Below, in pieces: positions 260 to 19,684 of a DNA stretch of 64,000 nt (position 1 is the first letter of the stretch; each line of letters opens with the position of its first letter). Both the position numbers and the translations under genes were made by a program. The DNA is from a virus. A model generated the notes under the pieces. It searched no databases and was not told where the DNA came from. It saw only the letters and a list, made by a program, of their open reading frames with translations. The stretch lies in IMG/VR virus record IMGVR_UViG_3300031485_000046. One strand, 5' to 3'.

Positions 260-910
260 CTACTCGTTATTGTAATGGTACTTTATGATTTGTGAGCACA
301 TCCGTCCAATTCTAGATGGTATCCTAGCATCATCCATCATTTCAGACAATCCTTCAATGGACACGTTGCTAGTAAATATGGTTGGGCGCAAATATTCATA
401 TCGGGTATTTATCAACTTGTATATTTTCTCATAATTAGCTGGATTGAATATTCCCTTTTCCACTCCAAAATCATCTAATACTAATAATGGAATTTGAGAT
501 GCAACCTCTATGGGAGTGGCTAAAGCCCAGTCACGGTGATTGTGCTTACTTTCTTTGTCCAGCAAATCTGCCATAGAAGTGAAAATAAAATTCCTAGATG
601 TATTCTGGATATATGCTCTTTTCATTATTTCCACATATATGAACATGGCTAGTACAGTTTTGCCTGACCTGGGTTGATTATGCCATATGTATATCCCGCT
701 ACCTTCAGTAGCTGTCATGGCATCCGCAATCTTACTAACCTTTTGCTTGATAGATTTGGATGAATACGTTTCCAATTCTTTGAGCATTCTAGGAGTAAAA
801 TGCCCTCGCAAATGCATTTCAATAGGATGATTGTCCCATACATTTTCCCTTGCACAAAACTCGCATACTGTAAACTTATATTCTCTTCCGCATTTGTTGC
901 ACATACTCAT
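260..910 (-). CDS. DnaC/IstB-like helicase loader ATPase with N-terminal CxxC zinc ribbon
   Basis: Walker A GSGIYIWHNQPRSGKT, Walker B LLVLDDFG, sensor TSN; RBS AAGGAGGG 6 nt upstream of ATG. Confidence 0.85.
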   Translation of the reverse strand: MSMCNKCGREYKFTVCEFCARENVWDNHPIEMHLRGHFTPRMLKELETYSSKSIKQKVSKIADAMTATEGSGIYIWHNQPRSGKTVLAMFIYVEIMKRAYIQNTSRNFIFTSMADLLDKESKHNHRDWALATPIEVASQIPLLVLDDFGVEKGIFNPANYEKIYKLINTRYEYLRPTIFTSNVSIEGLSEMMDDARIPSRIGRMCSQIIKYHYNNE

Positions 911-930
911 AGGTATCCCTCCTTACAGGA

Positions 931-2346
931 TTATTCTGACTGAATCACATTACCCAACGCATCATAAAACACTATCTTTTCATCCACATGGAGTTTATTC
1001 TTTCCATTATGTCTTCGTATCCTGCTACGGAAATCTTCTATCATCCGATATTTTTTTACGAATTCTTCCATATCTCGTACTACGGGCATATAATCCATAG
1101 TTTTGTTATGAATATGCCATGACAGCAAAGTAGATAAATTGGCGGGCGGAACCTCCTCAGACATACTGAATCGGTACAAAGAATTTGCCCATTTCAGTAT
1201 TGGCGGATTCTTGGTTTTCAATGATTCTGCTAATTCTCTAGCCATTTCGACGAACGCCGGAGGCGTATTGTCGAGGGCTAATGAATAATAAAACCAGCTG
1301 AAAGCTGTTTTAGTACCTTCTTTATCTCTGGATGCAAACTCATTCCAAAGTAGGTTTGGAAGAGATACTTTTCCGGTTTCTTTAGATTTATTCCTACTTG
1401 TAACTGCTGTAAGCAGGAGATTCTTAATCTCTTCCGTTGTCCATTGTTTTCTCAGGTAAACCTGGTCGATCTTAAAGGTTTGGAAGAACTCTCGTAATTC
1501 TTTTCTTGGTTGATTGTTCTTCATGCTGACTATCGGTATTCCCTGCAACAATGCTGAAAGCATCTTGCAGGCGGATTGTATCGTTTTACTCTTTGGATCA
1601 AGGTTATGCTTTGTCACATTTGGAAGAGTATTCCAATAAGAAATTATTTCTGAATTAATATCAGATAAAACACTGGCGGACACGCATGTGTCCGATAAAG
1701 TTTTTATTCTTGTATCTTCTTTAGAAGATACAGGAAGAATAACTTTAGTTATTCTTTTGTATTTGTTTATATGTTTATTAGGTTTATATTGTGCCTCGGT
1801 GTTAGGCGTAATGTTAGCATTGATGTTAGGAGTAATGCTGTGAGTGTCATTTTCGATACTCTGGGCGAAAGCTGTTCGTACAACTGAATCGGTACGTTCA
1901 TTGACCTTTTCTACGGGTTCTGTAGAAGGTGTAAATAGTTCTATCAGCTTCAACGGGTTTATTTTGTACCATTCTTTTGCAGGTAAACCTCTGAATTCCG
2001 ATTGCATTACACCTTTTTGAATAAGGATCTTTTTTGCGTATATCACAAATTGTCCAGAAAGGTGCCCTTTTTCATACAGGTCCTTCTTGGTATAGTAAAA
2101 CCATCCTTTATGATTAGGGTACTTCTGCATGTTATACATACACATTTCAATATACATGGATACAAGTCCAGCAAACATCCATCCGTACTTTTTGACCAAT
2201 TCTTTGTTAACGGTATAATAGCTGATTTTACATACCAGGCGATTCATTATTTCGCATTCCTGTTCGTAAGTCAATTCTTTACATTTACCATATTTCTTTT
2301 GTAAAGATTCAATGGTTATTTTTTTATCTTTTTTTATTTTTTCCAT
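931..2346 (-). CDS. Hypothetical protein; possible replication initiation/replisome organiser (by position upstream of loader)
   Basis: Long ORF; start taken at MEKIKK (ATG 2344-2346); function inferred only from context. Confidence 0.65.
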   Translation of the reverse strand: MEKIKKDKKITIESLQKKYGKCKELTYEQECEIMNRLVCKISYYTVNKELVKKYGWMFAGLVSMYIEMCMYNMQKYPNHKGWFYYTKKDLYEKGHLSGQFVIYAKKILIQKGVMQSEFRGLPAKEWYKINPLKLIELFTPSTEPVEKVNERTDSVVRTAFAQSIENDTHSITPNINANITPNTEAQYKPNKHINKYKRITKVILPVSSKEDTRIKTLSDTCVSASVLSDINSEIISYWNTLPNVTKHNLDPKSKTIQSACKMLSALLQGIPIVSMKNNQPRKELREFFQTFKIDQVYLRKQWTTEEIKNLLLTAVTSRNKSKETGKVSLPNLLWNEFASRDKEGTKTAFSWFYYSLALDNTPPAFVEMARELAESLKTKNPPILKWANSLYRFSMSEEVPPANLSTLLSWHIHNKTMDYMPVVRDMEEFVKKYRMIEDFRSRIRRHNGKNKLHVDEKIVFYDALGNVIQSE

Positions 2347-2855
2347 GGCAATACATCTCTCGCTTTCCATGCACAATAATACAACATACTTGTACAAGAT
2401 GCCGCAGGAATATAATACCATGTAACAGATTTTTTGAATCGTTTTTCCTTTTCAATCTTGATAAAGTTAATGGATTGTAGAAATTTAATAACCTCCCGTA
2501 TCTTTTTAAGCGGGAATAGCGTTCTCTCTTGCATTTTTCGTAAAGGGTACGTAAACCAGATATTTCCTTGTTTATCTTCATGGTACTTATCTATCTCATC
2601 TAATTTTCGTTCTGCTGGATATAAATAGTAATGATCATACCCGGAATTTCCGTATGTGTCTTCCGCTATTTGTTTGGCTTCTATCATTAGTGAAATGATT
2701 ACTGCCGTTTCAGTACCCATTATTTTAAGGATATTTGAGTCAATCATAATCCTATCCATCCCACATAGATTCCATGCTACTTTTTCACGAATATCGGAAG
2801 TTATTTCCTTTCCATATACTTTCATAAATGTTTCCATATTCGGTAAACTTTCCAT
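2334..2855 (-). CDS. Hypothetical protein
   Basis: 173-codon ORF with RBS GGAGGTAC upstream of ATG. Confidence 0.7.
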   Translation of the reverse strand: MESLPNMETFMKVYGKEITSDIREKVAWNLCGMDRIMIDSNILKIMGTETAVIISLMIEAKQIAEDTYGNSGYDHYYLYPAERKLDEIDKYHEDKQGNIWFTYPLRKMQERTLFPLKKIREVIKFLQSINFIKIEKEKRFKKSVTWYYIPAASCTSMLYYCAWKARDVLPWKK

Positions 2856-2880
2856 TTATGTACCTCCTTCCGAAAAACCT

Positions 2881-3398
2881 TCAGGCCCTCCATTGTTAAA
2901 AAAGAGCGGAGGTTTTCAAAATTTGGCAACCTCCGCCCTTCCCACGCCCCTAATTCGTGTTTTTGTTTTTTGGAACAATGATGGTGAAACTTTTGCTTTA
3001 TTTACTCGAAACCTTTGTTGCAAGAATGACTGTTTCTGCTTGTCAGGAAATGAAAATCGTCATCATTTTCACATCCAAACTAGGATGATTACAATTATAA
3101 AATAGAATGCTGTTGTGCCGCACCTAGATCGGCCTAAGATTTTTGGTGAGTACATTCTATTTTATTTTTGTAAAATCCAAGCAGGCGTGTTCACTCTTTT
3201 GGAGCAAAACTACAGCCTCCTTTCATGTGTTTCAAGATATGGAGCTAATCTCGCTTCGTGCGAGAATGCATATTATCATACAATAGAAATTTGTCCTAGT
3301 AAAGTTGTCGAAATATTGATAGCAACGGCAGAGAAACGTATAGCGCCTTGCGTTGCATACGCATGGCGGAGAAACGGTCGGCGGAGAAACGGAGAAAC
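2881..3398. repeat. Non-coding element A: conserved TCAGGCCCTCCATT box (2881-2894) and GGCGGAGAAAC direct repeats (3365-3375, 3380-3390, partial 3391-3398); homologous to element at 15169-15697
   Basis: Shared end motifs at near-identical spacing (about 485 bp) in two intergenic regions. Confidence 0.6.
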
Positions 3399-3567
3399 TC
3401 CGCTCCTAAATCTCTGCATGGATCTCCGGAGTGCCTTCTGGATTCCTGAAAACGGTAATACTGCTTACCTCAGAAGTTATACCTGTTCCAGAATCGTATA
3501 CCTTTAAGCGGTGCTGGAACAAAGGTATTGCCAAATTGAGAAGCCTTACCGCGTCTTCTAATTCCAT

Positions 3568-3822
3568 TTACTGTTCCACCTTTGTCATAATTGTGGTACC
3601 GCCCATTTCTACAAACAGGATTGTATATTTACCTTCTGTTTTTTTGGCATACTTGTCGAAAAAGGCCATAAACGTAACAAATTCCATACATATTGTCCGT
3701 ACTACCGTAGGAACGCCTTCTGGAGTAGTTGCCCATTCCACATTAATGCTGATAATACCGTCTGGTAACTGGATTCTATCTGTTTTAGTTATCAATTTAT
3801 AAATCTTAATCCTTTCGTCCAT
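3568..3822 (-). CDS. Hypothetical small protein
   Basis: 84-codon ORF with RBS AAAGGAGAAGG. Confidence 0.6.
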   Translation of the reverse strand: MDERIKIYKLITKTDRIQLPDGIISINVEWATTPEGVPTVVRTICMEFVTFMAFFDKYAKKTEGKYTILFVEMGGTTIMTKVEQ

Positions 3823-4108
3823 TTTTATACCTTCTCCTTTCTATTATGAAAAATAGACTGATAACCACACCTATTACTTCCACGGATTTCATGTTTCCTT
3901 GGTTGGTACGCTATAGCCTTTACTTTCAAGCTATAGTTTCATGTCTTTTTTGCTACCTAGTGATCCTGAGCGATTCTAGAGCCAAGGTTATACTTCTCGT
4001 TTACATCTATCCGATATATAATACACAGGTAATTCTTTTCCTTCAGATGATGGAAAGAAAAAAAGTAGAATATATTAATCAGCTATATTTTTCACAAACG
4101 AATATGGG

Positions 4109-4134
4109 TAAAAAGAAGGCAAGGTACTGCCTTC
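4109..4134 (-). terminator. Rho-independent terminator downstream of primase gene
   Basis: Stem GAAGGCA/TGCCTTC (4115-4121, 4128-4134), 6-nt loop, U-run on minus strand (A-run 4110-4114 on plus). Confidence 0.5.
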
Positions 4135-4137
4135 TTC

Positions 4138-5046
4138 CTAAATCCAACCTAGCAATTCTTTCTTCAAGGCATCCGCGTCAGTTTGTGCCATATCACCGGG
4201 GTCACCTTGTATTTTTATAGAATAGGCATCCACGCCTCTAAGTATAAGTTCCGCAGTCAATTTTTCCGATTGTTTTATTGCCTGCGGATCATCATCGAAT
4301 ACCACAAATACTTTCTTGAACCTTTTGCTTATTTCCCTTACCTGATATTTAGTGTATTTTATCCCAAAAGTAGCAATAGCACCGTACCCAAATCTCCATG
4401 CGTCTGTGACACCCTCCACACAAATGCAAGCATCATAATCCTTAATTGGTATCGCTTGGTAAAATACGTGCTTGTGTTTTACTATCTCTCGTTGTTCTGG
4501 ACACGTTATATAGCGGAGGGAATGCTTGGCAGTAATATCCCTCGTCTGAAAAGACACAATACGATTTTCCCAATAGATGGGAATAACTAATCTGTGGGAG
4601 AATGATATTCCATCCATAAGACTGATAGGACCTGTGCCTTGTACATCCCATATCTTTTCGATTACCTCTGGATTAAACTTTCTTTTGGTAAGGTATCTTT
4701 TATGACGATCGTTCATTGGTGCAGTAGAAGGAGGCAGTCTGAATTTTTTCTGACCGACTCTTACTGTTACAGTAGATTTTACATGACTCTTACCTCCGTA
4801 TTTCCTTGCTATTTCCTTTGCTTCTTTCTCTGATACGTGTATAAGTAGTGCTAGAGCTTTATGGGTCGCTTTCCAACCGCATCTCCAACAGACATAAAAA
4901 TCATCCGCCATATTGTATCCTAAATGCATTCCTGGATTACCAATGCAAAAAGGGCAGGTCGTATTGACCCACCCTTCCCGACAATGTTTATGCCCTTCCG
5001 TAGCAAATGGTACGTTAAAATCCTTGTACAATTGGATTATATTCAC
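4138..5046 (-). CDS. DNA primase (DnaG-like, CHC2 zinc finger plus TOPRIM)
   Basis: HKHCREGWVNTTCPFC zinc finger; TOPRIM motifs CVEGVTDAWRF, VFDDDPQA, GDPGDM; GTG start with AGGAGG RBS. Confidence 0.85.
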   Translation of the reverse strand: MNIIQLYKDFNVPFATEGHKHCREGWVNTTCPFCIGNPGMHLGYNMADDFYVCWRCGWKATHKALALLIHVSEKEAKEIARKYGGKSHVKSTVTVRVGQKKFRLPPSTAPMNDRHKRYLTKRKFNPEVIEKIWDVQGTGPISLMDGISFSHRLVIPIYWENRIVSFQTRDITAKHSLRYITCPEQREIVKHKHVFYQAIPIKDYDACICVEGVTDAWRFGYGAIATFGIKYTKYQVREISKRFKKVFVVFDDDPQAIKQSEKLTAELILRGVDAYSIKIQGDPGDMAQTDADALKKELLGWI

Positions 5047-9468: not shown

Positions 9469-9479
9469 ACCTTTTCCTC

Positions 9480-10324: not shown

Positions 10325-10698
10325 AGCTCTCCTTCGTCATTATCCACCTTGAGGTTTCCGTCTTCTTCAAGAATCCATTTCACGGGATGGTATTGAGGAT
10401 TGATGTCCTTCATCATTACCATCCTTGTATCAGTAATCATGGCAACATATCCGCTTACTAGCTTCTGTCCTTTGGCGTTGCATAGGAAGAGTGTAGTGTT
10501 TCCTGCCGATCCTACGCCTAGTCCGAGGTAAATTGCGTCCTCATTTTCGTTGAATCCAACGAAAATGGGTGTAGGGGAGTGTGTGACTCCCCCCTCCGTG
10601 TCTACTTCTGGCTTCTGCAAACGGGTGACCTGAATATCATCACCCTCTGCCGTAATGCGGTACCGGTTTCCATCTATATTTACTATTTTCTTTGCCAT
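10315..10698 (-). CDS. Hypothetical protein
   Basis: Start at internal ATG (10696-10698) with AGAGGAGG RBS. Confidence 0.6.
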   Translation of the reverse strand: MAKKIVNIDGNRYRITAEGDDIQVTRLQKPEVDTEGGVTHSPTPIFVGFNENEDAIYLGLGVGSAGNTTLFLCNAKGQKLVSGYVAMITDTRMVMMKDINPQYHPVKWILEEDGNLKVDNDEGELWV

Positions 10699-10699
10699 T

Positions 10700-11092
10700 T
10701 TAGTTATCCTCCTCTTCAAAGTTTACCAACTCAGGCAGATACTTCCTGAGTGCGGGCAGACTGTAGAAAAACCTTGACGGTTTTCCTGTACCTGTTCTTG
10801 CCCTGAGGCATCCACCGCCTTCAGGGTAGAGGCTCATGGAGATCATGCGCCCGTTGGTGAAAGTGCCCTTCCAGGTAAGAGTTACCCTTCCAAAAATGTC
10901 TTCCTTAACTTCGATGTCAGGGTTGGGTTCCTCCCCTCTGACCTTTTCAAGTACCTCTACCCCTATTGAAAGGGGCCCGTAGGTGGTGATTTCTTTGCTG
11001 GGAGTGCCCCAGCAGTGGAGCATCCACCTGGCAAACTCGTGATATACCCTTTCTGCCTCCCTCGGGTCTTTTATGGTACGCCTTTCATCCAT
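10700..11092 (-). CDS. Hypothetical protein
   Basis: 130-codon ORF with AAAGGAGG RBS. Confidence 0.65.
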   Translation of the reverse strand: MDERRTIKDPREAERVYHEFARWMLHCWGTPSKEITTYGPLSIGVEVLEKVRGEEPNPDIEVKEDIFGRVTLTWKGTFTNGRMISMSLYPEGGGCLRARTGTGKPSRFFYSLPALRKYLPELVNFEEEDN

Positions 11093-11093
11093 G

Positions 11094-11348
11094 TTAGTTA
11101 TCCTCCTTTGCGGCTTTTCTGAAAACCGCCTTCAGCAGCTCGTGTCCTTCTTTTGAGATGCCTTTAATGTACTCTACCTTACCGCCGGGCTTCCTGGTAT
11201 TTCTAGGGGCATCATGTATAATGAAGAGCCCTGCCCTTCCGTACATTAGCCTAGTTTCTTTGCGCGGATCATCCTCGCTTCTTTTCGAGGCGAGGATGAT
11301 TTCAACTACCTGTTCGAGATGGTTTCTTACTGTCCTCATGGTACACAT
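11094..11348 (-). CDS. Hypothetical protein (first gene of leftward operon; start may be the ATG at 11337-11339)
   Basis: ORF with AAAGGAGG RBS; upstream is a divergent promoter region. Confidence 0.6.
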   Translation of the reverse strand: MCTMRTVRNHLEQVVEIILASKRSEDDPRKETRLMYGRAGLFIIHDAPRNTRKPGGKVEYIKGISKEGHELLKAVFRKAAKEDN

Positions 11349-11486
11349 TCCTCCTTTGGTTTTCTGTACTAAGGATTAGGTTGTCAAGGGTCACGGGTTT
11401 GTGCTCACTTCGCTGTCTGATGCTATTCTCTCATACCATATTTGATATGTCAAATGTCCAGTTTGTCAAACAATAGAGTCTTTTTA

Positions 11487-11515
11487 TTGACAGGATACGG
11501 TTAAGGATATATACT
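11487..11515 (+). promoter_or_regulatory. Sigma-70-type promoter for terminase operon
   Basis: TTGACA (11487-11492), 17-nt spacer, TATACT (11510-11515). Confidence 0.55.
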
Positions 11516-11595
11516 ATTTCAATCTACCTGTAATATTTTCATCTCGAAAAAATGTATATAATAGAAGCCAATTTTGAAAGGAGTGTTTCATACAC

Positions 11596-12162
11596 ATGGC
11601 ATATCGAAAATCAGGGAGACCTTTAGCAGTAGCAGAACCGTGGAATGAATCAATCCCAGAAAGGGCGTATGATCTTTGCCTTCTAGGATTGCGTGATGCC
11701 GATTTAGCCACGGCATTCGGAGTTTCTATATATACCATTGATAAATGGAAACAGACTCATCCAGAGTTTAGAGAAGCACTATCCAGAGGTAAAGAACAAG
11801 CTGACGCTAAAGTGGCAGACGCACTTTACCATAAGGCAGTAGGCTATGCCCATAAAGCTGTGGACATCAGAATAGTTGACGGCGAGGTAGTGAAAATACC
11901 ATACACTAAAATCTATCCACCAGATACTACTGCCTGCATATTCTGGTTGAAGAATAGGCAAAGACAGTACTGGACGGATACCAAGCAAAATGTTCATACT
12001 GGTACAGTGGGTGTGGAACATACTATGAGACGTCAACTTGACCTTTCTGATTTCTCCAAAGAAGAACTTGCCCTAGCAGAAAAACTAGCCTCTAGGATGC
12101 TTCAGGAGGGTACTCAGGATGCAGAGTTTACAGAAGAGGGGGAGAATGACGGGGATGAGTAA
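11596..12162 (+). CDS. terS: Terminase small subunit
   Basis: Immediately upstream of and overlapping terL; RBS AAAGGAG; family assignment is recalled resemblance to HTH-type small terminases. Confidence 0.7.
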   Translation: MAYRKSGRPLAVAEPWNESIPERAYDLCLLGLRDADLATAFGVSIYTIDKWKQTHPEFREALSRGKEQADAKVADALYHKAVGYAHKAVDIRIVDGEVVKIPYTKIYPPDTTACIFWLKNRQRQYWTDTKQNVHTGTVGVEHTMRRQLDLSDFSKEELALAEKLASRMLQEGTQDAEFTEEGENDGDE

Positions 12163-13714
12163 ATATGAACGTAAGGACGCCTTAAAACGCCAAAGAGAAA
12201 ACATCATCCCAAAATCAGATAGGTTCCAAGCATTACTTTTGAACCCATTGCAGATAAAAGCAGAAAAATGCCGTAGGTCCCTATTTGAATTTATGAAAGA
12301 ATTCTGGCCAGAAGTATCCACAAGTGACCCTACATGGAATTGGCATCTAGAATACCTAGCTAACGAACTGGAAAGGATGATGTATAGAGTAGCAAACAGA
12401 CAACCAAAAGAATACGACCTCATAATAAACATAAGCCCCGGTACCACAAAGTCTACCCTATGTTCCATAATGCTGAATGCATGGGTGTGGGCTAAATGGC
12501 CTTGGCTCCGATTCATCAACGCATCCTATTCTGGAGCCCTATCTCTGGAACATTCAGAATTGTGTCGTGACCTTATACGGTCAGAACGATACAAAAGGTT
12601 ATTCCCGTATTTGGAAATAAAGCAAGACAAGGATACCAAAACTAACTTTAAAATTTTATATGATGAAGAGCGTCTGGATTCCATAACAGGCGAAGCATCT
12701 ACACTAAAAAAGAGTGGTGGTAACAGATACTCCACCTCCGTAGGCGGCACCTTGACTGGATTCCATGCTGATGTACTGTTAGTAGACGATCCATTGGATC
12801 CGCAAAGAGCTGTATCCGACGTGGAAGTCCTTAAAGCCAACACATGGATAGATCAGACACTATCTACCAGAAAGGTAGATAAAGCGGTAACACCAACCAT
12901 AATCATAATGCAAAGGCTCCATCAGAATGACCCTACGGGTTATCTGCTATCCAAGAAGAATAAAAAGATAAAGCATATCTGCCTACCAGGTGAAATACGG
13001 AATTACAGGAAAAATTTGAAACCTAAAGCCCTAGCCAAGTATTATAAGGATGATCTGTTCGACCCTATAAGAATGCCATGGAAAGTCCTTGACGACCTAA
13101 GAGTAGACCTTGGTGAATTCGGGTATGCTTCCCAGATCGGCCAATCCGCAGTATCAGACAAGGGCAACTTATTCAAGGTAGAACACTTTCAAATCATCCA
13201 TAGTATGGTACCAGACCCAGACATAGTAAGATCCATACGATACTGGGACAAAGCCGGTACAGCTGGAGCTGGAGCATACACGGTGGGGGTACGAATGCTT
13301 GCATTGAATAATGGAAAATTCCTTATCACGGATGTTAAAAGAGGGCGGTGGTCCACAGAACAACGGGAAGCCATCATCAGACAGACTGCAGAAGCCGACG
13401 GTACAGACACAATAATCTGGCATGAACAAGAACCAGGTTCAGGCGGAAAAGAATCCGCAGAAGGCACTATAAGAAACCTAGCTGGATACACCACGTATGC
13501 AGATAGGGTAACTAGAAACAAGGAAATGAGAGCGGATCCATATTCAGTCCAAGTAAATAATGGTAACGTACTGTTACTATATGCTCCGTGGAACCAAGAC
13601 TTCATAGAAGAGCACAGATACTTCCCAAATTCAACATATAAGGATCAGGTAGACGCAGCCTCAGGAGCGTTCTCTAAGGCAGTACGGAAAAAGATAGCCG
13701 GTGCGATAGGATAA
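12155..13714 (+). CDS. terL: Terminase large subunit (ATPase plus RNase H-like nuclease)
   Basis: N-terminal ATPase region; C-terminal nuclease-domain pattern (IRYWDKAGTAGAGAY...DQVDAASGAF); start at ATG 12155 with RBS, overlapping terS stop. Confidence 0.9.
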   Translation: MSKYERKDALKRQRENIIPKSDRFQALLLNPLQIKAEKCRRSLFEFMKEFWPEVSTSDPTWNWHLEYLANELERMMYRVANRQPKEYDLIINISPGTTKSTLCSIMLNAWVWAKWPWLRFINASYSGALSLEHSELCRDLIRSERYKRLFPYLEIKQDKDTKTNFKILYDEERLDSITGEASTLKKSGGNRYSTSVGGTLTGFHADVLLVDDPLDPQRAVSDVEVLKANTWIDQTLSTRKVDKAVTPTIIIMQRLHQNDPTGYLLSKKNKKIKHICLPGEIRNYRKNLKPKALAKYYKDDLFDPIRMPWKVLDDLRVDLGEFGYASQIGQSAVSDKGNLFKVEHFQIIHSMVPDPDIVRSIRYWDKAGTAGAGAYTVGVRMLALNNGKFLITDVKRGRWSTEQREAIIRQTAEADGTDTIIWHEQEPGSGGKESAEGTIRNLAGYTTYADRVTRNKEMRADPYSVQVNNGNVLLLYAPWNQDFIEEHRYFPNSTYKDQVDAASGAFSKAVRKKIAGAIG

Positions 13715-13772
13715 ACATATAAAGGTAACCAAACAGATAACCCGTTTAGCCGTAGGCTATAGGGATAAATAA

Positions 13773-13817
13773 TGATACAGATAGATATGGATTCACCTAT
13801 CTGTATCATTTTTTTAT
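13773..13817 (+). terminator. Rho-independent terminator after terL
   Basis: Perfect 12-bp stem TGATACAGATAG/CTATCTGTATCA, 12-nt loop, T-run 13809-13817. Confidence 0.6.
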
Positions 13818-14325
13818 GGTAAAATACTCATACCGTAAGGTAAGCTATGATATAGTAAAAATTGGGTAGTTTGGTAGTTATAGAGGTAGTCAGATAGAAT
13901 AGGAAAAAAACTATCCATAAAAATAACATAGATAGGTAGACTAATATGGTATAATCTATAGAAACCTATATATCAATACAATCCATACTTTTACTATCCA
14001 AATAAGCTAATAATCCAATATAATCCAGATAATCCTAAACAGGTACATATAGTCAATTATAATAAGATACAGAAGAGGCAATCCCAAATCATACTAAGAT
14101 GGTATACCAATATATCTGATACACCATATAACCTATCTCATGTAACCATACGAATATGCATATGGATAAACAGTAAGAACGACATAATACAAATATACAC
14201 CAATTCAATCAAGCTAATAGGAACATACGCAATAAGCTAATATCCGATAAGCCTAAACAGGTACATAGTCAATATCAATATCTAGTCAATAGTAAACTAA
14301 CATGCGAGCCTCCCTAAGGTAGGTC

Positions 14326-14370
14326 CCATAAATTGGTACCATAAATTGGTACCATATCCTGGTTTACCAG
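14326..14370. repeat. Tandem repeat ATAAATTGGTACC (about 2.5 copies)
   Basis: Direct read of sequence. Confidence 0.6.
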
Positions 14371-14688
14371 CATGTGGTAACCTTACCTCCATCCTTACCA
14401 TCACCTATACCACCATTCATCTGGATCTAATCTGCCTATACCCATATTTAATCTATGGTATTTAATAAATGGACACCATATTTCATAAATGGATAGCCAA
14501 AACCATACAAGCCATATCCTATTCCGTATTCCAATCCAATATATAGATACCTATACCTCCACTTCACCATGTACTGGGAAACCCAGTAATTGGTATAAAA
14601 AAATGGGACCTAAGTGTGGTAACCTAGATTTATCTATGTATGATCGTTTATATAGTGAAACCGAGATTTATACCTATTATTTTGTCCT

Positions 14689-15080
14689 CCACTATACCAA
14701 TACGGTGGTATGCTGGATTGTAATCAGGAAATTCAAATACGGAGTAGACCTCGATGTTTTACTATGTATATATAGAACGTATCTTTATAACAGTACCTAC
14801 CAACTATCCACTACGGTGGTGTGTTGGATTGTACTTATAAATATGTGGAAAATAGAAAATGGGAGGTATTTCGATGTTTTACTATGTAGAACCGACGGTC
14901 TGTTTTTGTCAGGAATCTTCCAACTATCCACTACGGTGGTATATTGGGAGATACTTACCGAAACGTGTATGATATGAAATGGGAGGTATTTCGATGTTTT
15001 ACTATGCATATATAGAGATATTGATTGGTTCCCATTTACCCTATATCTTACCCAGTATCCACTACGGTGGTATGTTGGGT
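14689..15080. repeat. Four direct repeats, period about 120-130 bp, with conserved cores CCACTACGGTGGT and GGGAGGTATTTCGATGTTTTACTATG
   Basis: Core copies at about 14689, 14801, 14921, 15051; second core at 14751, 14871, 14991. Confidence 0.7.
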
Positions 15081-15168
15081 AGTATTAATCCGTAGTATGG
15101 GTAGGTACTGTCTAGATTGTTTATCTATATATAGAGAATGAATAAGGTGTGTCCATTCCCAAAATACC

Positions 15169-15697
15169 TCAGGCCCTCCATTATCTAGAATTTTCCCCAA
15201 TTATAAAAATTTGTCAACCTCTGGCAGCTAAATGGAGTATAAGTATCCTACGGATACATGTATAAAAATGAAATCTTGGACACGTATCCAACGGATTATT
15301 TTATAAAAATGGGATTGGATTATTTTTATTTATACAGGTTCAATTTGAGAAAATGCACCTGTTTGAGTTTTCGATGGGTAATTGGTATAACAATAGTTGG
15401 ATTATATAAAAACGGTATGGGATAATACCAGACCCGTTTTGAAGGCATAAATTGCATAAATCAGTTCCGTTTATTTTTTTATTTCCTATGGATGGTACCG
15501 AATATTTCGAGGAGAAAAGGAATCCATAAAAATCATACGAGGTTTTTCATGCTACCTAATCCAAAATACGTGGCGAATTTTCGGCTCCGTAATCGTTTTT
15601 CTAGAGGTGAGCGGTGAATTCATACCGGTAGAAAATGAGCGCCTTCTAGCGCACCGCTGGCGGAGAAACTCATTGGCGGAGAAACTGGCGGAGAAAA
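15169..15697. repeat. Non-coding element B: TCAGGCCCTCCATT box (15169-15182) and three GGCGGAGAAA(C/A) repeats (15659-15669, 15675-15685, 15687-15697)
   Basis: Homologous end motifs and spacing to element A (2881-3398). Confidence 0.6.
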
Positions 15698-15748
15698 TGG
15701 ATGGATTTTTCTGTTTTTCTGTTTTTCTGATTGTTGTACATCGTTTCT

Positions 15749-15797
15749 ACATTCTACATTCTACATTCTACATTCTACATTCTACATTCTGCATTTC
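15749..15797. repeat. Heptanucleotide tandem repeat ATTCTAC, about 7 copies
   Basis: Direct read of sequence. Confidence 0.75.
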
Positions 15798-16019
15798 AGA
15801 AGAATGCATGTGGTACTTTATAAGATGCATGTATGCAATGTCATATGCATCCTTAATTGTCTCCTGATTACTATACAATTATACACTATTCCTATTCCTG
15901 TTTCAATCGTAACAGATATTTTACTATTATATAATAATCTATAGTATTGTGTCATATTGTAGAATATTCTTATATTCATGAATATCAGACAAGCATAATG
16001 CAGAATGCATATTATACAA

Positions 16020-16213
16020 TGCATTATTCAGCTATATTTTTCACAAGCATTTTTTAGTAGTACAATGCATAATGCAGAATGCATCATGCATTATTCAATG
16101 AAACATTTCACAAGTGTTCATACAGTGCATACAATACATTCTGCATCATGCATCATGCATTATTCAGCTATATTTTTCACAAGCATTTTTTAGTAGTACA
16201 ATACATTCTGCAA
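16020..16213. repeat. Two copies of a 50-bp direct repeat (16021-16070, 16157-16206) plus three copies of TTCAATGAAAYATTTCACAAG
   Basis: Direct read of sequence; repeats about 136 bp apart. Confidence 0.6.
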
Positions 16214-16439
16214 TATGCATTGTATAGCATGTATTATTCAATGAAACATTTCACAAGTGTTACTGTATCCGAAGAGTATACAATGCATTTTTCAATGAAA
16301 TATTTCACAAGCGATACTGTGATCGAATTGTATCTGAATGACTATACAATTCACTATTATTTTATAAAACTCTATAGTATTGCAGAATACAGTAGAATTC
16401 AGTAGAATTATATTAAGTGTATAGTCTTTTCATGCATAG

Positions 16440-16467
16440 TTGACATTCTATCGTAGAGTGCTATACT
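16440..16467 (+). promoter_or_regulatory. Sigma-70-type promoter for three-gene cassette
   Basis: TTGACA (16440-16445), 16-nt spacer, TATACT (16462-16467). Confidence 0.5.
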
Positions 16468-16584
16468 GTACTCGTAGCAAGCGAGCGAGCAAGTTCTTTG
16501 ACAACTGAAGAAGCAAGCTCATAACAGAGTAACACTTCTTCAGAACATACGCGCACAACGTTGCGCAGAAAGAGAGTGTGTAGC

Positions 16585-16923
16585 ATGACAACGAGCAGCA
16601 AGAAGAACGTAAACAGTAAGAAAGCTGAAATAGTCGAACAGAAAGCAGTTGAAGTAAAGAAAGAAGAAGTAAGAGAAGCAAAGAAGATTAGCAATACTCA
16701 GAAGTGTGCTGATATGATCATGCAACTTGCGAAAGACGCTAAGTATACTCGCAGTGAAATTTGTAATGCTGTTTCAGATGCACTAACAGCATTAAGCATA
16801 GTCACAGTAAAGACTATGCTTTCAGACTTGCAGAACAGCAAGTATGCAAGACGTTATAGCACTCATACTATCGCAGTAAACAAAGAAACAAAGATTGTAA
16901 CAGTAGCAAGTGAGATAAAATGA
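16585..16923 (+). CDS. Hypothetical lysine-rich protein (cassette gene 1)
   Basis: ATG at 16585 downstream of promoter; 5' leader contains 9-bp inverted repeat CTGAAGAAG/CTTCTTCAG (16503-16545). Confidence 0.55.
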   Translation: MTTSSKKNVNSKKAEIVEQKAVEVKKEEVREAKKISNTQKCADMIMQLAKDAKYTRSEICNAVSDALTALSIVTVKTMLSDLQNSKYARRYSTHTIAVNKETKIVTVASEIK

Positions 16924-17132
16924 AGTATCAGCATGTTGAACGTTCGCAAGCTCTCGCAGTAAGTGACGTTGAAACTTTGCAGAATATTGCAAAAAGACGT
17001 CTGATCGATTTGAAACAGCTTGCAAGAGAAGCAGACTCTTTACTTGTCTTTTCAGTAATAAGAAATACATGTATTCAAATCGATCGAAGCATCGATGATG
17101 CACTTGAAAACGCAAGAAAATTACTGAAGTAG
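16920..17132 (+). CDS. Hypothetical protein (cassette gene 2)
   Basis: ATGA overlap with upstream stop. Confidence 0.5.
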   Translation: MKYQHVERSQALAVSDVETLQNIAKRRLIDLKQLAREADSLLVFSVIRNTCIQIDRSIDDALENARKLLK

Positions 17133-17141
17133 TACAAAAAA

Positions 17142-17185
17142 AGATAGTCAAGTATCTACAATTCGATACTTGACTATCTTTTTAT
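17142..17185 (+). terminator. Rho-independent terminator
   Basis: Perfect 15-bp stem AGATAGTCAAGTATC/GATACTTGACTATCT, 8-nt loop, T-rich tail. Confidence 0.6.
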
Positions 17186-17208
17186 CTCATTTGAAAGAGA
17201 GTGATACT

Positions 17209-17532
17209 ATGTTAGATAATCAGTATGAATTACATCAAAAGATACAAAAAATAGAACACAAGCATATCAGATTACATGCAAGCAATTGTATGTACAAATT
17301 GATGAATATTCAATTGTTACTTGAAGAACAGATTAATCTACTCATTTCTGATATTGTAGCAAATGATGCTTCTGTTAGTGAAATATTGCTAACAGAACGT
17401 CAAAGTACATTTGATAATGAACTTTTTGCGATAACGACAAAAGAAGATAGAAAAGCAATAGCAATACTGCATAATACTATAATCGATAGTATGAATGCAG
17501 TAAGAAAGACAATCATCTATACAGACGAATAA
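17209..17532 (+). CDS. Hypothetical protein (cassette gene 3)
   Basis: ATG at 17209 (MLDNQYELHQ) after weak RBS; ORF track start at 17170 lies inside the terminator. Confidence 0.5.
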   Translation: MLDNQYELHQKIQKIEHKHIRLHASNCMYKLMNIQLLLEEQINLLISDIVANDASVSEILLTERQSTFDNELFAITTKEDRKAIAILHNTIIDSMNAVRKTIIYTDE

Positions 17533-17574
17533 AATTACACAATAGAGCATAATTGATAGCAATTGAATAGAAAA

Positions 17575-17612
17575 GAGTAGTCAATACTAGACTACTCTTT
17601 TCTTTTTTATTC
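17575..17612 (+). terminator. Rho-independent terminator
   Basis: Stem AGAGTAGTC/GACTACTCT, 7-nt loop, T-run. Confidence 0.6.
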
Positions 17613-17750
17613 ATGCATACAATGCATGATGCATCCTGCACTATGCATAGTATAAGCGTTCATAGTAGCATTTGATAACATAACACTACACTATTTATTA
17701 CAATTAGACAATATACTACAATATGATAGTGTAGTGTGTATTGTCTATTC

Positions 17751-17794
17751 TATACACTACAATATAGACAAGTATACACTACAATATAGACAAG
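17751..17794. repeat. Tandem 22-bp direct repeat TATACACTACAATATAGACAAG (2 copies), flanked by inverted repeat ACACTACACTAT/ATAGTGTAGTGT
   Basis: Direct read of sequence. Confidence 0.6.
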
Positions 17795-17998
17795 TATAGA
17801 ATAGAGTATAATAATCTATAGTATGCTACACTATATAGCAATATAATATAATAATATATAATTGTATAGTAAAGCAGATACAATTCAATACAATGACTGC
17901 GCTAGTATACAATGCATGATGCATGATGCATCGTACACAATGCATAATGTAAAATCGATTTTACACGTTGCAGAATGCATGCTGGCTCCTGGCCCCCT

Positions 17999-18152
17999 CT
18001 AAAATTGTGACAAATTTTTCTGGATATTAAAATGGGTAATCCATTATTTTCTAAAGCATATTCATTATTTATTCTACGTATCTTTCACACACCCCTCGTA
18101 AAATTGCTACTGATTTTTCCCAATACTAAAGTGGGTAATCCATTATTTTCGA
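17999..18152. repeat. Two copies of about 55-bp element ending in TGGGTAATCCATTATTTTC (promoter-like)
   Basis: Copies at about 17999-18052 and 18094-18150; degenerate third at about 18340-18375. Confidence 0.55.
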
Positions 18153-18414
18153 TATATCTATTCTGTATGACTGTATAGATAGTATAAGATGCAGTATCCA
18201 ATTTTAACTAATGGATTAATATACCCAATTTACTCATACTATACGTATCTTCATGGATCCGTTTTCTTTCGTCTTTATTTTTACCATACCCCGTCATTCT
18301 GTATGAATTTATCCAAAAATAACCGCATAAATATTTTGTAAAAATTTATATGGGAGTTAAAATGGGTTGATTAGATCAGTAGAGAGGTTAGATCACACTA
18401 GGGAGTTAGATACG

Positions 18415-18452
18415 ATGCATCCTAGCCCGGATCCTGATAGGCTAGGATGCAT
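18415..18452. other. Perfect 13-bp inverted repeat (stem-loop) ATGCATCCTAGCC / GGCTAGGATGCAT with 12-nt loop
   Basis: Direct read of sequence; no T-run follows. Confidence 0.5.
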
Positions 18453-18674
18453 ATAGAAACTATGTTTGTCGTAATATATCTTGAAAACGCATCAGATTCG
18501 TTTCATACTGTGCGATTTCCTTGCTTATGGAAGCTGTTCGTTCTGTTTCAGACGTTGTTTCTATCGTCTAGAGTGAAAAAGATCGAATACCGTGCAAGGA
18601 TTTAACGTGTCATGCCATCCCATTCGGTTGTTCCCTCCGTCCTTGCGACTTTCCTATAAGGGATGGAAACCGGG

Positions 18675-18893
18675 TCATTTCGCCCGCTCCTCCCAGAACC
18701 GTCTGCGTCGCTCCTCCCTGTGACGCTTGATATTCTCCCGCACCCTCTGCGTGCGGGGCGGGAACGTGTTCAGATGGGTCAGCACCGGCTCCACGCTGAC
18801 AGCTCTGCCGAATTCCCTCTCCCATTCCTGGGCGTAGATTTCCTCGTAGGATAACATTTCGCGAAATCTGAGCCCCGTGCATCGTCCGCTCAT
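18675..18893 (-). CDS. Small basic, arginine-rich protein encoded in a GC-rich patch
   Basis: ATG overlaps stop of KdsB-like gene (ATGA); local composition visibly GC-richer than surroundings. Confidence 0.4.
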   Translation of the reverse strand: MSGRCTGLRFREMLSYEEIYAQEWEREFGRAVSVEPVLTHLNTFPPRTQRVRENIKRHREERRRRFWEERAK

Positions 18894-19684
18894 TCCTTAC
18901 CCTCCTTTTTTTCTATAATTTCATCATATTCATTTTCTTTACCAGAGTTTATTATACAACGAACAGCTTCCAAATCAGCAGGAGTATCTACACTAGGTCC
19001 AACTTTTTTTGCTCTTGTTATTTCTACTTTAATGGAAAAATCATGTTCTAATATTCTGAGCTGTTCCAGTGATTCTGCTGATGCCAAAGGTGTTTGTGGC
19101 ATTTTGGCATAATAATGGATTAAGAAACGTCTAGTAAATCCATAAATTCCTATATGTCGGTAGATGGGATATACTTCTTCCGGATCTCTAATAAAAGGGA
19201 TAGGAGACCTACTGAAATATAAAGCATCTCCATTTATTCTGAATGCCACTTTTACTACCGATGGATCATTGATAGTAGCGGTATCTGTAATAAGGGCACA
19301 TATCGTAGCAGATTCCGTAGCCCTATTTTCAGTTTTATAAAATAATGATATTACTTCATCAATCATACAAGGATTAAGTAATGGTTCATCCCCTTGTATG
19401 TTTATCACTATATTATTATTAGAGAATTTTTTAGCTATTTCCACAACTCTACTAGTTCCGTTTGTATGATTTGGAGAAGTTAGCATAGCTTCTCCACCGA
19501 AATTATTTACAGCCTGCACGATTCTTTCATCGTCAGTAGCTACAATCAACCGGTCAAGTAAAGTAGATCGTGAGGCTCGCTCGTACACTCTCTGGATCAT
19601 TGTTTTTCCGCATATATCAGCTAGAGGTTTACCGGGGAGCCTTGTAGAATTGTATCTAGCGGGGATAACTCCTAAAGTTATCAT
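18890..19684 (-). CDS. kdsB: CMP-Kdo synthetase-like cytidylyltransferase (3-deoxy-manno-octulosonate cytidylyltransferase family)
   Basis: IPARYNSTRLPGKPL, VATDDE, GGE, QGDEP, ALYFSR, HIGIYGF, LEQLR, VDTPADLE match KdsB signature blocks as recalled. Confidence 0.85.
   Translation of the reverse strand: MITLGVIPARYNSTRLPGKPLADICGKTMIQRVYERASRSTLLDRLIVATDDERIVQAVNNFGGEAMLTSPNHTNGTSRVVEIAKKFSNNNIVINIQGDEPLLNPCMIDEVISLFYKTENRATESATICALITDTATINDPSVVKVAFRINGDALYFSRSPIPFIRDPEEVYPIYRHIGIYGFTRRFLIHYYAKMPQTPLASAESLEQLRILEHDFSIKVEITRAKKVGPSVDTPADLEAVRCIINSGKENEYDEIIEKKEGKE

What the first reader, a model, noticed from the sequence alone, without database searches (positions are those of the whole stretch)
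16028..16046. Recurring 19-mer TCAGCTATATTTTTCACAA at three intergenic sites
The identical 19-mer occurs at 4079-4097, 16028-16046 and 16164-16182. On the minus strand the first copy reads TTGTGA-N17-TATATT, a plausible promoter facing the leftward genes at 3822. The other two copies lie in the repeat region and may be further promoters or binding sites for the same factor.
Basis: seen in the sequence. Interest (0 to 1): 0.4.

Follow-up and report, generated by a model that had tools for sequence, protein, structure and literature searches.

The report
Conserved protein-binding repeat in phage control regions
The 19-mer is real. It is the core of a roughly 29-bp two-part DNA motif that an uncultivated phage and its relatives keep in one to five copies upstream of a small winged-helix gene, with one more copy in front of the replication-initiation genes; it is most likely a docking site for a DNA-binding protein, not a set of promoters.

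Summary
TCAGCTATATTTTTCACAA occurs exactly at 4079, 16028 and 16164 (+ strand), against 0.04 matches expected by chance. The window is a phage genome of about 65 kb.

- **Copies 2 and 3** share 48 identical bases. They belong to a five-member direct-repeat family at 16022-16314.
- **Motif:** YATTWTTCA-N7-WTTTCACAAG. The 9-mer TTTCACAAG is unchanged in every copy upstream of the small operon in the window and 18 related contigs. All these copies have the same orientation, upstream of a conserved 112-aa winged-helix gene.
- **Copy 1** lies in a roughly 100-bp insertion/deletion cassette just after the primase terminator. Some relatives lack the cassette.
- **Matching variants:** the motif variant (A versus A2) is the same at both loci within a clade.

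It scores no better than chance and loses its -10 box in another clade. Copies 2 and 3 have TGCATT/TGCATG at that position.

Best reading: operator- or iteron-like binding sites that link two control regions. The binding protein is unknown. My pick is the winged-helix protein; the main rival is the replication initiator. This is an ordinary kind of element in an unusual 5-kb repeat-filled non-coding module.

The parts
4073..4101 (+). Copy 1 of the two-part element (type A; the 19-mer is 4079-4097): TATTAATCAGCTATATTTTTCACAAACGA
   Evidence: weight-matrix score 38.7. Also present in L001/L044, L011, L054, L055 and L065. L046 carries the A2 variant. L045, L052 and L053 lack it.
4069..4097 (-). 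Its -35 box and spacer overlap copy 1.
   Evidence: 9 of 12; the number of such matches in the region equals the shuffle expectation. The -10 box is not conserved in L046.
4109..4140 (-). Intrinsic terminator hairpin that ends the primase gene. It belongs to the same insertion/deletion cassette as copy 1.
   Evidence: -16.4 kcal/mol, z = -5.1, U-run follows. The homologous hairpin in L046 carries compensatory changes. The cassette is absent in L045 and L052.
16022..16050 (+). Element copy, type A (19-mer 16028-16046)
   Evidence: score 43.7
16089..16117 (+). Element copy, type B (TTCAATGAAACATTTCACAAG; contains the near-palindrome TGAAA-N2-TTTCA)
   Evidence: score 36.5
16158..16186 (+). Element copy, type A (19-mer 16164-16182)
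   Evidence: score 43.7
16232..16260 (+). Element copy, type B
   Evidence: score 35.6
16286..16314 (+). Proximal element copy, type B' (TTCAATGAAATATTTCACAAGCGA; contains the perfect palindrome TGAAATATTTCA). It occupies the position that holds a type A or A2 copy in most relatives.
   Evidence: It ends 128 bp before the -35 box of the rightward promoter.
15972..15985 (.). Perfect 14-bp palindrome ATATTCATGAATAT. In relatives it lies directly upstream of the proximal element. Clade II has ATATTCTAGAATAT, a symmetric change.
16440..16467 (+). Strong sigma-70-type promoter TTGACA-16-TATACT for the small operon, conserved in all relatives
15878..15955 (-). Two leftward sigma-70-like promoters (ATGACA-18-TATAAT and TTGAAA-17-TATAAT). 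The element array lies between these and the rightward promoter.
   Evidence: 11 of 12 each. Conserved in L025 but not evident in clade II.
16585..16923 (+). Conserved 112-aa protein with a Lys-rich disordered N-terminal tail and a winged-helix domain. It is the candidate binder of the element.
   Evidence: 114 homologues, all from uncultivated sequences. Alignment. AlphaFold2 model with core pLDDT about 88 and the topology H-b-H-H-b-b. The best Foldseek matches are winged-helix proteins (Fur, MarR, ScpB), but E >= 0.08.
260..3822 (-). Replication-initiation operon downstream (leftward) of copy 1: 84-aa gene, DnaD-like protein (2334-2855), O-like initiator (931-2421) and DnaC-like loader (260-910)

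Best explanation
The 19-mer is the core of a roughly 29-bp two-part cis element with consensus YATTWTTCA-N7-WTTTCACAAG(Y)G. I read it as a docking site for a sequence-specific, phage-encoded DNA-binding protein.

The genome has six sites at two loci. Five are direct copies (16022-16314), placed between divergent host-type promoters upstream of a small operon whose first gene encodes a conserved winged-helix protein. One copy (4073-4101) lies just after the primase terminator, over the -35 box and spacer of the only sigma-70-like promoter match in front of the replication-initiation operon.

Proposed mechanism (inferred, not shown): the protein occupies the upstream array and the lone site. My pick for the protein is the 112-aa winged-helix protein encoded about 280 nt downstream of the proximal copy. 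At 4.08 kb, occupancy would block or time transcription of the initiator and loader genes. The array, whose copy number varies from 1 to 5, would set or buffer the concentration of free protein and control the flanking promoters.

Shown here: the sites are non-random, conserved, fixed in orientation, confined to these two loci, and carry the same variant at both loci within a clade. Not shown: that any protein binds them, or which one.
For: 1. **Not chance.** Shuffles predict 0.04 matches and 3 are seen. A weight matrix built from 28 distinct instances finds exactly six sites in 64 kb, scoring 35.6-43.7; nothing else scores 9 or more.
2. **Selective conservation.** The 9-mer TTTCACAAG is unchanged in every copy upstream of the small operon, in the window and 18 related contigs whose small protein is only 62-91% identical. 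The 7 bases between the two blocks vary freely: TATATTT, TATATAT, GTTATAT, TAACGAT, ATGAAAC.
3. **Fixed orientation and position.** Every copy is on the + strand relative to the small gene. Every relative keeps a proximal copy whose distance to the -35 box is 98, 108, 118, 128, 138, 148 or 208 bp, always 8 modulo 10.
4. **Neighbouring features typical of protein sites.** A perfect 14-bp palindrome changes symmetrically between clades (ATATTCATGAATAT versus ATATTCTAGAATAT). Type B copies contain TGAAA-N2-TTTCA.
5. **The two loci carry the same variant.** Clade I has type A at both loci. Clade II has A2 (AGCGTTATATTTCACAAGC) at the 16-kb locus (L039, L041, L056-58) and in the primase cassette of L046, which is 93% identical in nucleotides to L052.
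6. **A plausible binder is next door.** A conserved winged-helix protein is encoded immediately downstream.
7. **Position of copy 1.** It overlaps a promoter-like site placed right after a terminator.
Against: - No binding data exist, and the binder is a guess. The winged-helix fold matches are not significant (E >= 0.08) and the protein has no Pfam family.
- Type A copies have no dyad symmetry, which is unusual for dimeric repressors.
- The array lies 98-490 bp upstream of the rightward promoter, too far for simple occlusion.
- Clade II genomes have a single copy at the 16-kb locus, and some lack copy 1 altogether, so the 4-kb site is dispensable.
- In clade III the primase cassette carries a different motif, CCAGAAATTGGTA twice, which is also found in the large non-coding region. 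Matching variants could therefore reflect repeated copying of DNA from that region rather than selection for binding.
- The clade II match rests on two different contigs of the same clade, not on one genome.
Confidence: 0.5

Rival explanations
1. The copies are iterons for the phage replication initiator (the O-like 496-aa protein or the DnaD-like 173-aa protein). On this view the five direct repeats at 16 kb form, or belong to, a replication origin. The single copy in front of the initiator operon would be an autoregulatory or handcuffing site, as in F, P1 and pPS10 plasmids, or like the two-site origins of phage P4 (ori/crr) and SPP1 (oriL/oriR).
For: - Five same-orientation repeats of about 24-29 bp with a two-part structure. 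Rep monomers with two winged-helix domains read two-part iterons (established knowledge).
- Very AT-rich DNA lies next to the array, and promoters flank it.
- Copy 1 lies directly upstream of the operon that encodes the O-like initiator, the DnaD-like protein and the DnaC-like loader.
- The phage has its own replisome, so it needs an origin.
- Almost all genes point away from the 11-21 kb region and converge at 44 kb.
- In F, RepE binds iterons at the origin and at incC, and also sites at its own promoter (PMC13028717).
Against: - Spacings of 67, 69, 74 and 54 bp are neither short nor in helical phase.
- Clade II phages have only one copy at the locus, which cannot make an iteron origin.
- Copy 1 is a direct full copy, not an inverted partial repeat.
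- Copy 1 is missing in L045 and L052, and clade III has another motif there.
- No repeats were found inside the O-like gene either, so the origin location is simply unknown.
Confidence: 0.2
2. The copies are promoters. This is the first reader's idea, extended: each copy is read leftward, either by the host sigma-70-type polymerase or by polymerase carrying the phage sigma factor (5015-5608), with TTGTGA as the -35 box.
For: - Copy 1 reads TTGTGA-17-TATATT just after a terminator and faces genes.
- The phage encodes a sigma-70-family protein. Its Sigma70_r2 score is 28.4 bits against a cut-off of 24.
- All copies share one orientation. Leftward of the 16-kb array there is a possible non-coding transcription unit that ends at a terminator-like site at 15652-15639.
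Against: - The -10 position reads TGCATT, TGCATG, TACATG, TGCTTG or TATATG in the other copies and in relatives, so no consistent box exists.
- The copy 1 match is no better than chance (3 found against 3.3 expected).
- The real operon promoters in this genome are near-consensus TTGACA-16/17-TATACT, at 11487-11515 and 16440-16467.
- The motif precedes no other operon, which is odd for a sigma regulon.
- The conserved blocks are only about 13 bp apart, not the 17-bp spacer between hexamers expected for -35 and -10 boxes.
- The plus-strand matches (TTTTCA or TTCACA-17-TACAAT) are not conserved in relatives.
Confidence: 0.08
3. The copies are functionless repeat DNA. The 16-kb region is an unstable tandem-repeat field, and short pieces of it are occasionally copied into the primase-downstream gap by template switching or gene conversion. 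The 19-mer identity would then simply reflect recent copying.
For: - Copies 2 and 3 lie in a recent 136-bp duplication with 48 identical bases.
- Copy number varies from 1 to 5 between close relatives.
- Assemblies break or carry N gaps here.
- The primase cassette is an insertion/deletion, and in clade III it holds a different fragment that is also found in the big non-coding region.
Against: - TTTCACAAG and TTCA stay unchanged while the 7 bases between them and the flanks diverge.
- A proximal copy is kept at a homologous position in all clades, despite about 20% nucleotide divergence in neighbouring genes.
- Orientation never flips.
- The adjacent palindrome changes symmetrically.
Confidence: 0.12
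4. The copies are recognition sites for packaging. The small terminase subunit would bind the repeats, in the manner of cosB R sites or pac boxes, because the array lies 2.3 kb downstream of the terminase genes in the main non-coding region, where the genome ends may lie.
For: - The array is close to TerS (11596-12162) and TerL (12119-13714).
- Known pac and cos regions contain repeated short boxes (established knowledge).
- The region is the only large non-coding stretch in the genome.
Against: - A packaging signal has no obvious reason to recur downstream of the primase gene.
- A better-conserved candidate block exists at 14315-14370.
- Copy number falls to one in clade II.
- The genome ends could not be located with the data available.
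Confidence: 0.05

Closest known systems
Lambdoid operator sets (OL1-3 and OR1-3) (from established knowledge)
   Same: Several near-identical sites of about 17-20 bp sit in two separate control regions of one phage genome. They lie in or near promoters, and a DNA-binding-protein gene is adjacent to one set.
   Different: - Lambda operators are dyad-symmetric, spaced a few bp apart, and overlap the promoters they control.
- Here type A sites are asymmetric and 54-168 bp apart.
- Here the sites lie 98 bp or more upstream of the rightward promoter.
- Only one of the six overlaps a promoter-like sequence.
- No CI- or Cro-type protein was identified.
Iterons and Rep initiators of theta plasmids (F RepE, P1 RepA, pPS10 RepA); PMC13028717
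   Same: Direct repeats of about 20 bp in one orientation, with a two-part conserved pattern. A second set or single copy lies near the initiator gene. AT-rich DNA is adjacent. Copy number can titrate the protein.
   Different: - Spacing is irregular and long.
- Some relatives have one copy only.
- The site at the initiator operon is not an inverted partial repeat.
- The nearby initiator is O-like/DnaD-like, not a RepA-family protein.
- Binding is untested.
Two-site phage origins: P4 ori/crr bound by the alpha protein, and SPP1 oriL/oriR bound by G38P (from established knowledge)
   Same: The same short recognition sequence recurs at two loci several kb apart. One locus is next to replication genes and the other is in a non-coding segment.
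   Different: No evidence that either locus here is an origin. The 4-kb copy is dispensable in natural relatives.
Heptad arrays bound by the omega (ParB) protein of pSM19035; PMC9499535
   Same: This comparison concerns the neighbouring ATGCATN/ATGCAGA units, which interleave with the element. They are contiguous 7-bp repeats in both orientations, in runs of 4 or more, located upstream of promoters.
   Different: - The 19-mer itself is not a heptad array.
- No ribbon-helix-helix protein and no ParA were found.
- The function of the ATGCAT units is unknown.

Membership tests
Sigma-70-type promoter | A -35 and a -10 hexamer separated by 16-18 bp, with A at position 2 and T at position 6 of the -10 box | tested here: inconclusive
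   Copy 1 passes at 9 of 12, but that is at chance frequency. Copies 2 and 3 fail on the minus strand, where the -10 position reads TGCATT or TGCATG. On the plus strand they pass at 9 of 12 only by borrowing TACAAT from the next repeat unit.
Sigma-70-type promoter | Both hexamers conserved in relatives | tested here: not met
   L046 has TGCATT at the -10 position of copy 1. L045 and L052 lack the site. The -10 positions of the 16-kb copies vary: TGCATG, TGCTTG, TATATG.
Sigma-70-type promoter | A mapped transcription start downstream | not testable with these tools
   No transcript data are available for this uncultivated phage.
Iteron-type replication origin | Three or more direct repeats of about 17-22 bp in one orientation | tested here: inconclusive
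   Five copies in the window, L035 and L042; three in L038 and L061; one in clade II (L039, L041, L056-58).
Iteron-type replication origin | Regular spacing in helical phase (multiples of about 11 bp) | tested here: not met
   Spacings are 67, 69, 74 and 54 bp in the window, and 108, 166 and 168 bp in relatives.
Iteron-type replication origin | An adjacent AT-rich unwinding region | tested here: met
   The window has its lowest GC at 15-18 kb (0.30-0.35). The sequence at 15880-15990 is very AT-rich. This feature is not specific to origins.
Iteron-type replication origin | The initiator binds the repeats, and the locus supports autonomous replication | not testable with these tools
   Needs gel-shift or footprint assays and origin mapping.
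Phage operator set (repressor or regulator sites) | Several similar sites at more than one control region of the same genome | tested here: met
   Six sites at two loci and nowhere else.
Phage operator set (repressor or regulator sites) | Dyad symmetry of each site | tested here: not met
   Type A has none. Types B and B' contain TGAAA-N2-TTTCA. A separate perfect palindrome lies nearby.
Phage operator set (repressor or regulator sites) | Sites overlap the regulated promoters | tested here: inconclusive
   Only copy 1 overlaps a promoter-like site. The array lies 98 bp or more from the rightward promoter and about 70 bp or more upstream of the leftward ones.
Phage operator set (repressor or regulator sites) | A cognate DNA-binding protein is encoded nearby and binds the sites | not testable with these tools
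   A winged-helix protein is encoded 280 nt downstream. Binding is untested.

The most novel reading that the evidence does not exclude
The 5.2-kb, almost gene-free module between the terminase and portal genes may be a control hub of a kind not yet described. It holds ATGCAT heptad arrays, the TTCA-N9-TTTCACAAG elements, 10-, 13-, 22- and 120-bp tandem repeats, and divergent strong promoters. The module is absent from more distant relatives. On this reading, the short gap after the primase gene is a satellite site that must carry a copy of whichever motif the hub uses: type A in clade I, A2 in clade II, AAATTGGTA in clade III. The two loci would then be physically coupled, by looping or handcuffing, to link replication initiation with early transcription or packaging.
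Probability: 0.12. Interest if true: 0.6.

Novelty: new member of a known kind. Interest (0 to 1): 0.3.

Why it matters
If the reading is right, the element gives a concrete, testable handle on how a widespread but uncultivated phage lineage is regulated. The lineage has 114 homologues of the small protein and hundreds of primase homologues in metagenomes.

The test needs only a defined 29-bp probe and four or five candidate proteins. It would show whether one factor links the replication-initiation operon to the large repeat-filled region.

Taken alone, a repeated protein-binding motif in a phage control region is ordinary. The less ordinary points are the size and complexity of the surrounding non-coding module, and the fact that the satellite site carries different motifs in different clades.

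Tried and rejected
- **Known RNAs:** no tRNA or tmRNA and no Rfam family in the window.
- **DNA similarity to cultured phages:** none for 13700-17000. TerL and the capsid protein have only distant cultured relatives, so no host or annotated homologue could be borrowed.
- **19-mer in 596 Gb of genomes:** 16 loci. I judged 15 single hits in unrelated taxa to be chance. Only L025, a 2.7-kb scaffold binned with a Methanolobus genome, is a true relative.
- **More distant TerL relatives (46-59% identity):** they lack the element and the whole non-coding module.
- **Plus-strand promoters formed by one repeat's TTCACA and the next repeat's TACAAT:** not conserved in relatives.
- **Host regulator sites recalled from memory:** Rex (TTGTGAA-N4-TTCACAA), CRP (TGTGA-N6-TCACA) and 434-type operators (ACAA-N6-TTGT). 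Only one half-site fits, and type A has no partner half, so I dropped them.
- **RNA-level function:** folding z-scores of -2.6 and -4.6 are explained by the palindromic ATGCAT units. Copy 1 would also be transcribed in the opposite sense to the 16-kb copies, so a shared RNA role is unlikely.
- **Repeats inside the O-like initiator gene (a lambda-style origin):** none found.
- **Literature search for the 9-mer:** only primers and shRNA loops.
- **Sequence and fold searches for the 112-aa protein:** nothing significant.
- **A single clade II or clade III contig holding both loci:** not obtained. The loci are 11-12 kb apart, beyond the 10-kb flank limit.

Full report
**1. The observation**

TCAGCTATATTTTTCACAA occurs exactly at 4079, 16028 and 16164, all on the + strand. 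No further match appears even with three mismatches. Dinucleotide-preserving shuffles give 0.04 matches on average. All three sites are non-coding.

**2. The genome**

The window is nearly a whole phage genome.
- The source contig is 64,752 nt.
- A DnaB-like gene at the right edge and a DnaC-like gene at the left edge would be neighbours on a circular map.
- Leftward genes at 260-11348 encode a DnaC-like loader, an O-like initiator, a DnaD-like protein, a primase, a sigma-70-family protein and an SNF2 helicase.
- TerS and TerL lie at 11596-13714.
- Structural genes run from the portal gene at 21096 to about 43.9 kb.
- A leftward block from 43.9 to 64 kb encodes a full replisome and 7-deazaguanine enzymes.

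No cultured phage is close. Genes carry strong Shine-Dalgarno sites (AAAGGAG before the gene starting at 3822). The clear operon promoters are near-consensus TTGACA-16/17-TATACT, so sigma-70-type rules are the right yardstick.

The genome is tightly packed except for four gaps: 3823-4137 (which holds copy 1), 11349-11595, 13715-16560 (which holds copies 2 and 3) and 17533-18889.

**3. Anatomy of the element**

Copies 2 and 3 share 48 identical bases within an 88-nt unit repeated 136 bp apart. They are the two type A members of a five-copy direct-repeat family with spacings of 67, 69, 74 and 54 bp. The other three members are type B, TTCAATGAAA(C/T)ATTTCACAAG.

Aligning 28 distinct instances from this and related genomes gives the consensus YATTWTTCA-N7-WTTTCACAAG(Y)G. 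There are two conserved blocks about 13 bp apart and a free 7-bp middle. A weight matrix built from these instances finds exactly six sites in the window, the five above plus copy 1. Nothing else scores 9 bits or more.

The array is interleaved with contiguous 7-bp ATGCATN units (ATGCAT is enriched 59-fold). It lies between two leftward promoter-like sites, each matching 11 of 12 (15955-15878), and the strong rightward promoter at 16440-16467.

**4. Relatives**

I collected about 30 related contigs using exact-pattern scans and homologues of the small protein and the primase. The gene order is conserved: TerS, TerL, about 2.7 kb of non-coding DNA, the small operon, more non-coding DNA, leftward accessory genes, then the portal gene.

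Every relative keeps a proximal element in the + orientation upstream of the small gene. Copy number at the locus is 1, 2, 3 or 5. TTTCACAAG is unchanged in all copies at this locus, although the small protein falls to 62% identity and the flanking DNA diverges strongly. Variants differ only in the middle block:
- **A:** TATATTT
- **A':** TATATAT
- **A2:** GTTATAT
- **A3:** TAACGAT
- **B:** ATGAAAC

The distance from the proximal element to the -35 box is always 8 modulo 10 (98 to 208 bp), because the spacer is built from 10-bp repeats. A perfect 14-bp palindrome next to the element changes symmetrically between clades.

More distant relatives, with TerL at 46-59% identity, have the portal gene directly after TerL. 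They have no such module and no element.

**5. Copy 1**

On the minus strand the primase gene ends in a strong hairpin followed by a U-run. Copy 1 follows 12 nt later. Comparison with relatives shows that element plus hairpin form a cassette of about 100 bp:
- **Present, type A:** clade I (window, L001, L011, L054, L055, L065). The base after CACAA varies (A, G or T).
- **Present, type A2:** the clade II contig L046.
- **Absent:** the clade II contigs L045, L052 and L053, where about 29 bp replace about 104 bp.

L046 is 93% identical in nucleotides to L052, which is the same contig that carries an A2 element at its 16-kb locus. So the variant type matches between the two loci within each clade.

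In clade III (primase 77% identical) the cassette instead holds two copies of CCAGAAATTGGTA. That motif's relatives lie in the large non-coding region of all clades.

**6. The promoter idea**

TTGTGA-17-TATATT at copy 1 is a genuine 9-of-12 match in a sensible place. However, such matches occur at chance frequency in that region, the -10 box is lost in L046, and the cassette is dispensable.

For copies 2 and 3, and for all other copies, the -10 position reads TGCATT, TGCATG, TACATG, TGCTTG or TATATG. No gene lies leftward of them. The motif is absent from every other operon start. The plus-strand matches that use the next unit's TACAAT are not conserved.

I therefore rate the promoter reading as partly supported for copy 1 only.

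**7. Mechanism**

What is shown: a short two-part sequence is kept under selection at two loci, in one orientation, with the same variant at both.

What I infer: it is a protein-binding site. I commit to an operator-like role for a phage DNA-binding protein. The 112-aa protein encoded next to the array is the most likely binder. It has a winged-helix core with pLDDT of about 88, a Lys-rich tail, and is conserved in all relatives. Occupancy at copy 1 would cover the -35 box and spacer of the promoter-like site in front of the initiator and loader operon. The variable array would control the divergent promoters and buffer the concentration of free protein. Confidence is about 0.5 for a protein-binding site that links the two regions, and lower for the identity of the binder.

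**8. Rivals**

- **Iterons of the replication initiator (0.2).** This fits the direct repeats, the AT-rich context and the position of copy 1. It is weakened by irregular spacing, single-copy clade II genomes and the dispensable copy 1.
- **Neutral repeat DNA spread by copying (0.12).** This fits the insertion/deletion behaviour and the clade III motif swap, but not the selective conservation of the two blocks.
- **Promoters for the host or phage sigma factor (0.08).**
- **Terminase recognition sites (0.05).**

**9. Comparison with known systems**

The arrangement works most like lambdoid operator sets, or like iteron sets with a remote partner site (F oriS/incC, P4 ori/crr, SPP1 oriL/oriR). 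It fails defining features of each:
- Type A copies have no dyad symmetry.
- The spacing is not in helical phase.
- Five of the six sites do not overlap a promoter.

The neighbouring ATGCAT heptads resemble the heptad arrays bound by the omega protein of pSM19035 (PMC9499535), but I found no ribbon-helix-helix protein and no ParA. Membership in any named family is therefore not claimed.

**10. Verdict**

The motif is real, conserved and most likely protein-binding. It is an ordinary kind of element set in an unusually large and complex non-coding module. Interest is 0.3.

**Limits**
- No binding or transcript data exist.
- The host is unknown.
- The clade II match between the two loci is inferred from two contigs of one clade, not from a single genome.
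- Some assemblies have N gaps in the repeat region, so copy numbers for L036 and L037 are minimum values.

Noticed in passing
window 13715-18889: A 5.2-kb stretch is almost gene-free apart from a three-gene operon (16585-17532) and is packed with at least 20 repeat families. The whole module between TerL and the portal gene is absent from relatives with TerL at 46-59% identity, where the portal gene follows TerL directly.
   Followed up: partly
window 15745-15850, 16005-16290, 17613-17650, 17905-17980: The palindromic hexamer ATGCAT occurs 13 times in 740 nt, a 59-fold enrichment. It forms contiguous 7-bp units (ATGCATA ATGCAGA ATGCATC ATGCATT at 16065-16092). An opposite-orientation run of TTCTACA units repeats about eight times at about 15745-15795. 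A second pair of ATGCAT clusters flanks the most AT-rich 250 bp of the window. The arrangement resembles heptad arrays bound by small repressor/ParB proteins, but no such protein was found.
   Followed up: partly
window 17751-17794: An exact tandem duplication of the 22-mer TATACACTACAATATAGACAAG lies inside the AT-rich core between the two right-hand ATGCAT clusters.
   Followed up: no
window 14687-15089: Four repeats of about 120 nt each contain a hairpin (CCAAC-TAT-CCAC-TACG-GTGG-TGT-GTTGG) that includes a DnaA-box-like CTATCCACT. Three of the units are followed by GGGAGG and a tiny ATG-TTT-TAC-TAT-G... reading frame.
   Followed up: no
window 14315-14370; L063 9100-9200: The block CCTAAGGTAGGTCCCATAAATTGGTACCATAAATTGGTACCATATCCTGGTTTACCAGC is conserved in all clades about 600 nt after TerL. 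In clade III the primase-downstream cassette carries two copies of the related CCAGAAATTGGTA(CCGTATCCTGGT) in place of the TTTCACAAG element. The block is a possible packaging or other essential cis site.
   Followed up: partly
window 15635-15955 (minus strand): Two near-consensus leftward promoters (11 of 12 each) and a terminator-like hairpin at 15652-15639 bracket about 250 nt made of TGGCGGAGAAA (three copies), TTTTCTG (three copies) and the TTCTACA run of about eight copies. All are conserved in L025. This may be a small non-coding RNA built from tandem repeats.
   Followed up: partly
window 16380-16410; L061 3720-3890: 10-bp tandem repeats (CAGTAGAATT) between the proximal element and the rightward promoter vary from about 2 to 11 copies among relatives. 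As a result the element-to-promoter distance is always 8 modulo 10 (98 to 208 bp).
   Followed up: partly
L025 1650-1700; L039 9945-9990; L056, L061: Relatives with the short type of small-operon leader carry an inverted repeat TCGCAAG-N11-CTTGCGA just after the promoter. Its right arm is an inverted near-copy (11 of 12, CGCTTGCGAAAT against CGCTTGTGAAAT) of the element's conserved block. The window has a longer leader of a different type with a 9-bp hairpin, CTGAAGAAG...CTTCTTCAG.
   Followed up: partly
window 3839-3855 versus 4086-4102: An inverted partial copy of the element's right half (14 of 17 complementary, TTCTATTATGAAAAATA) lies next to the ribosome-binding site of the 84-aa gene, 230 nt from copy 1.
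   Followed up: no
window 60205-62436: A 7-deazaguanine DNA-modification gene set: a DpdA-like transglycosylase (60205-61176), a QueF-like gene (61179-61622) and QueC (61597-62436). The phage probably replaces some G in its DNA.
   Followed up: partly
window 18500-19684: A cytidylyltransferase of the CMP-KDO-synthetase type (CTP_transf_3, E = 1.5e-56) is encoded at 18890-19684, next to a GC-rich stretch at 18600-18900 in an otherwise AT-rich region. Relatives carry different accessory genes here (a methyltransferase, Thy1).
   Followed up: partly
window 5015-5608: A phage-encoded sigma-70-family protein (Sigma70_r2, above Pfam's cut-off) overlaps the start of the primase gene. I could not identify its target promoters; the clear operon promoters look host-type.
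   Followed up: partly
window 55511-58590: The family-A DNA polymerase appears split into two adjacent reading frames (57319-58590 and 55511-57355).
   Followed up: no
L025 (JAVEPM010000269.1): A 2.75-kb scaffold of this phage lineage is deposited inside a Methanolobus metagenome-assembled genome. This is probably a binning artefact and not evidence of an archaeal host.
   Followed up: no
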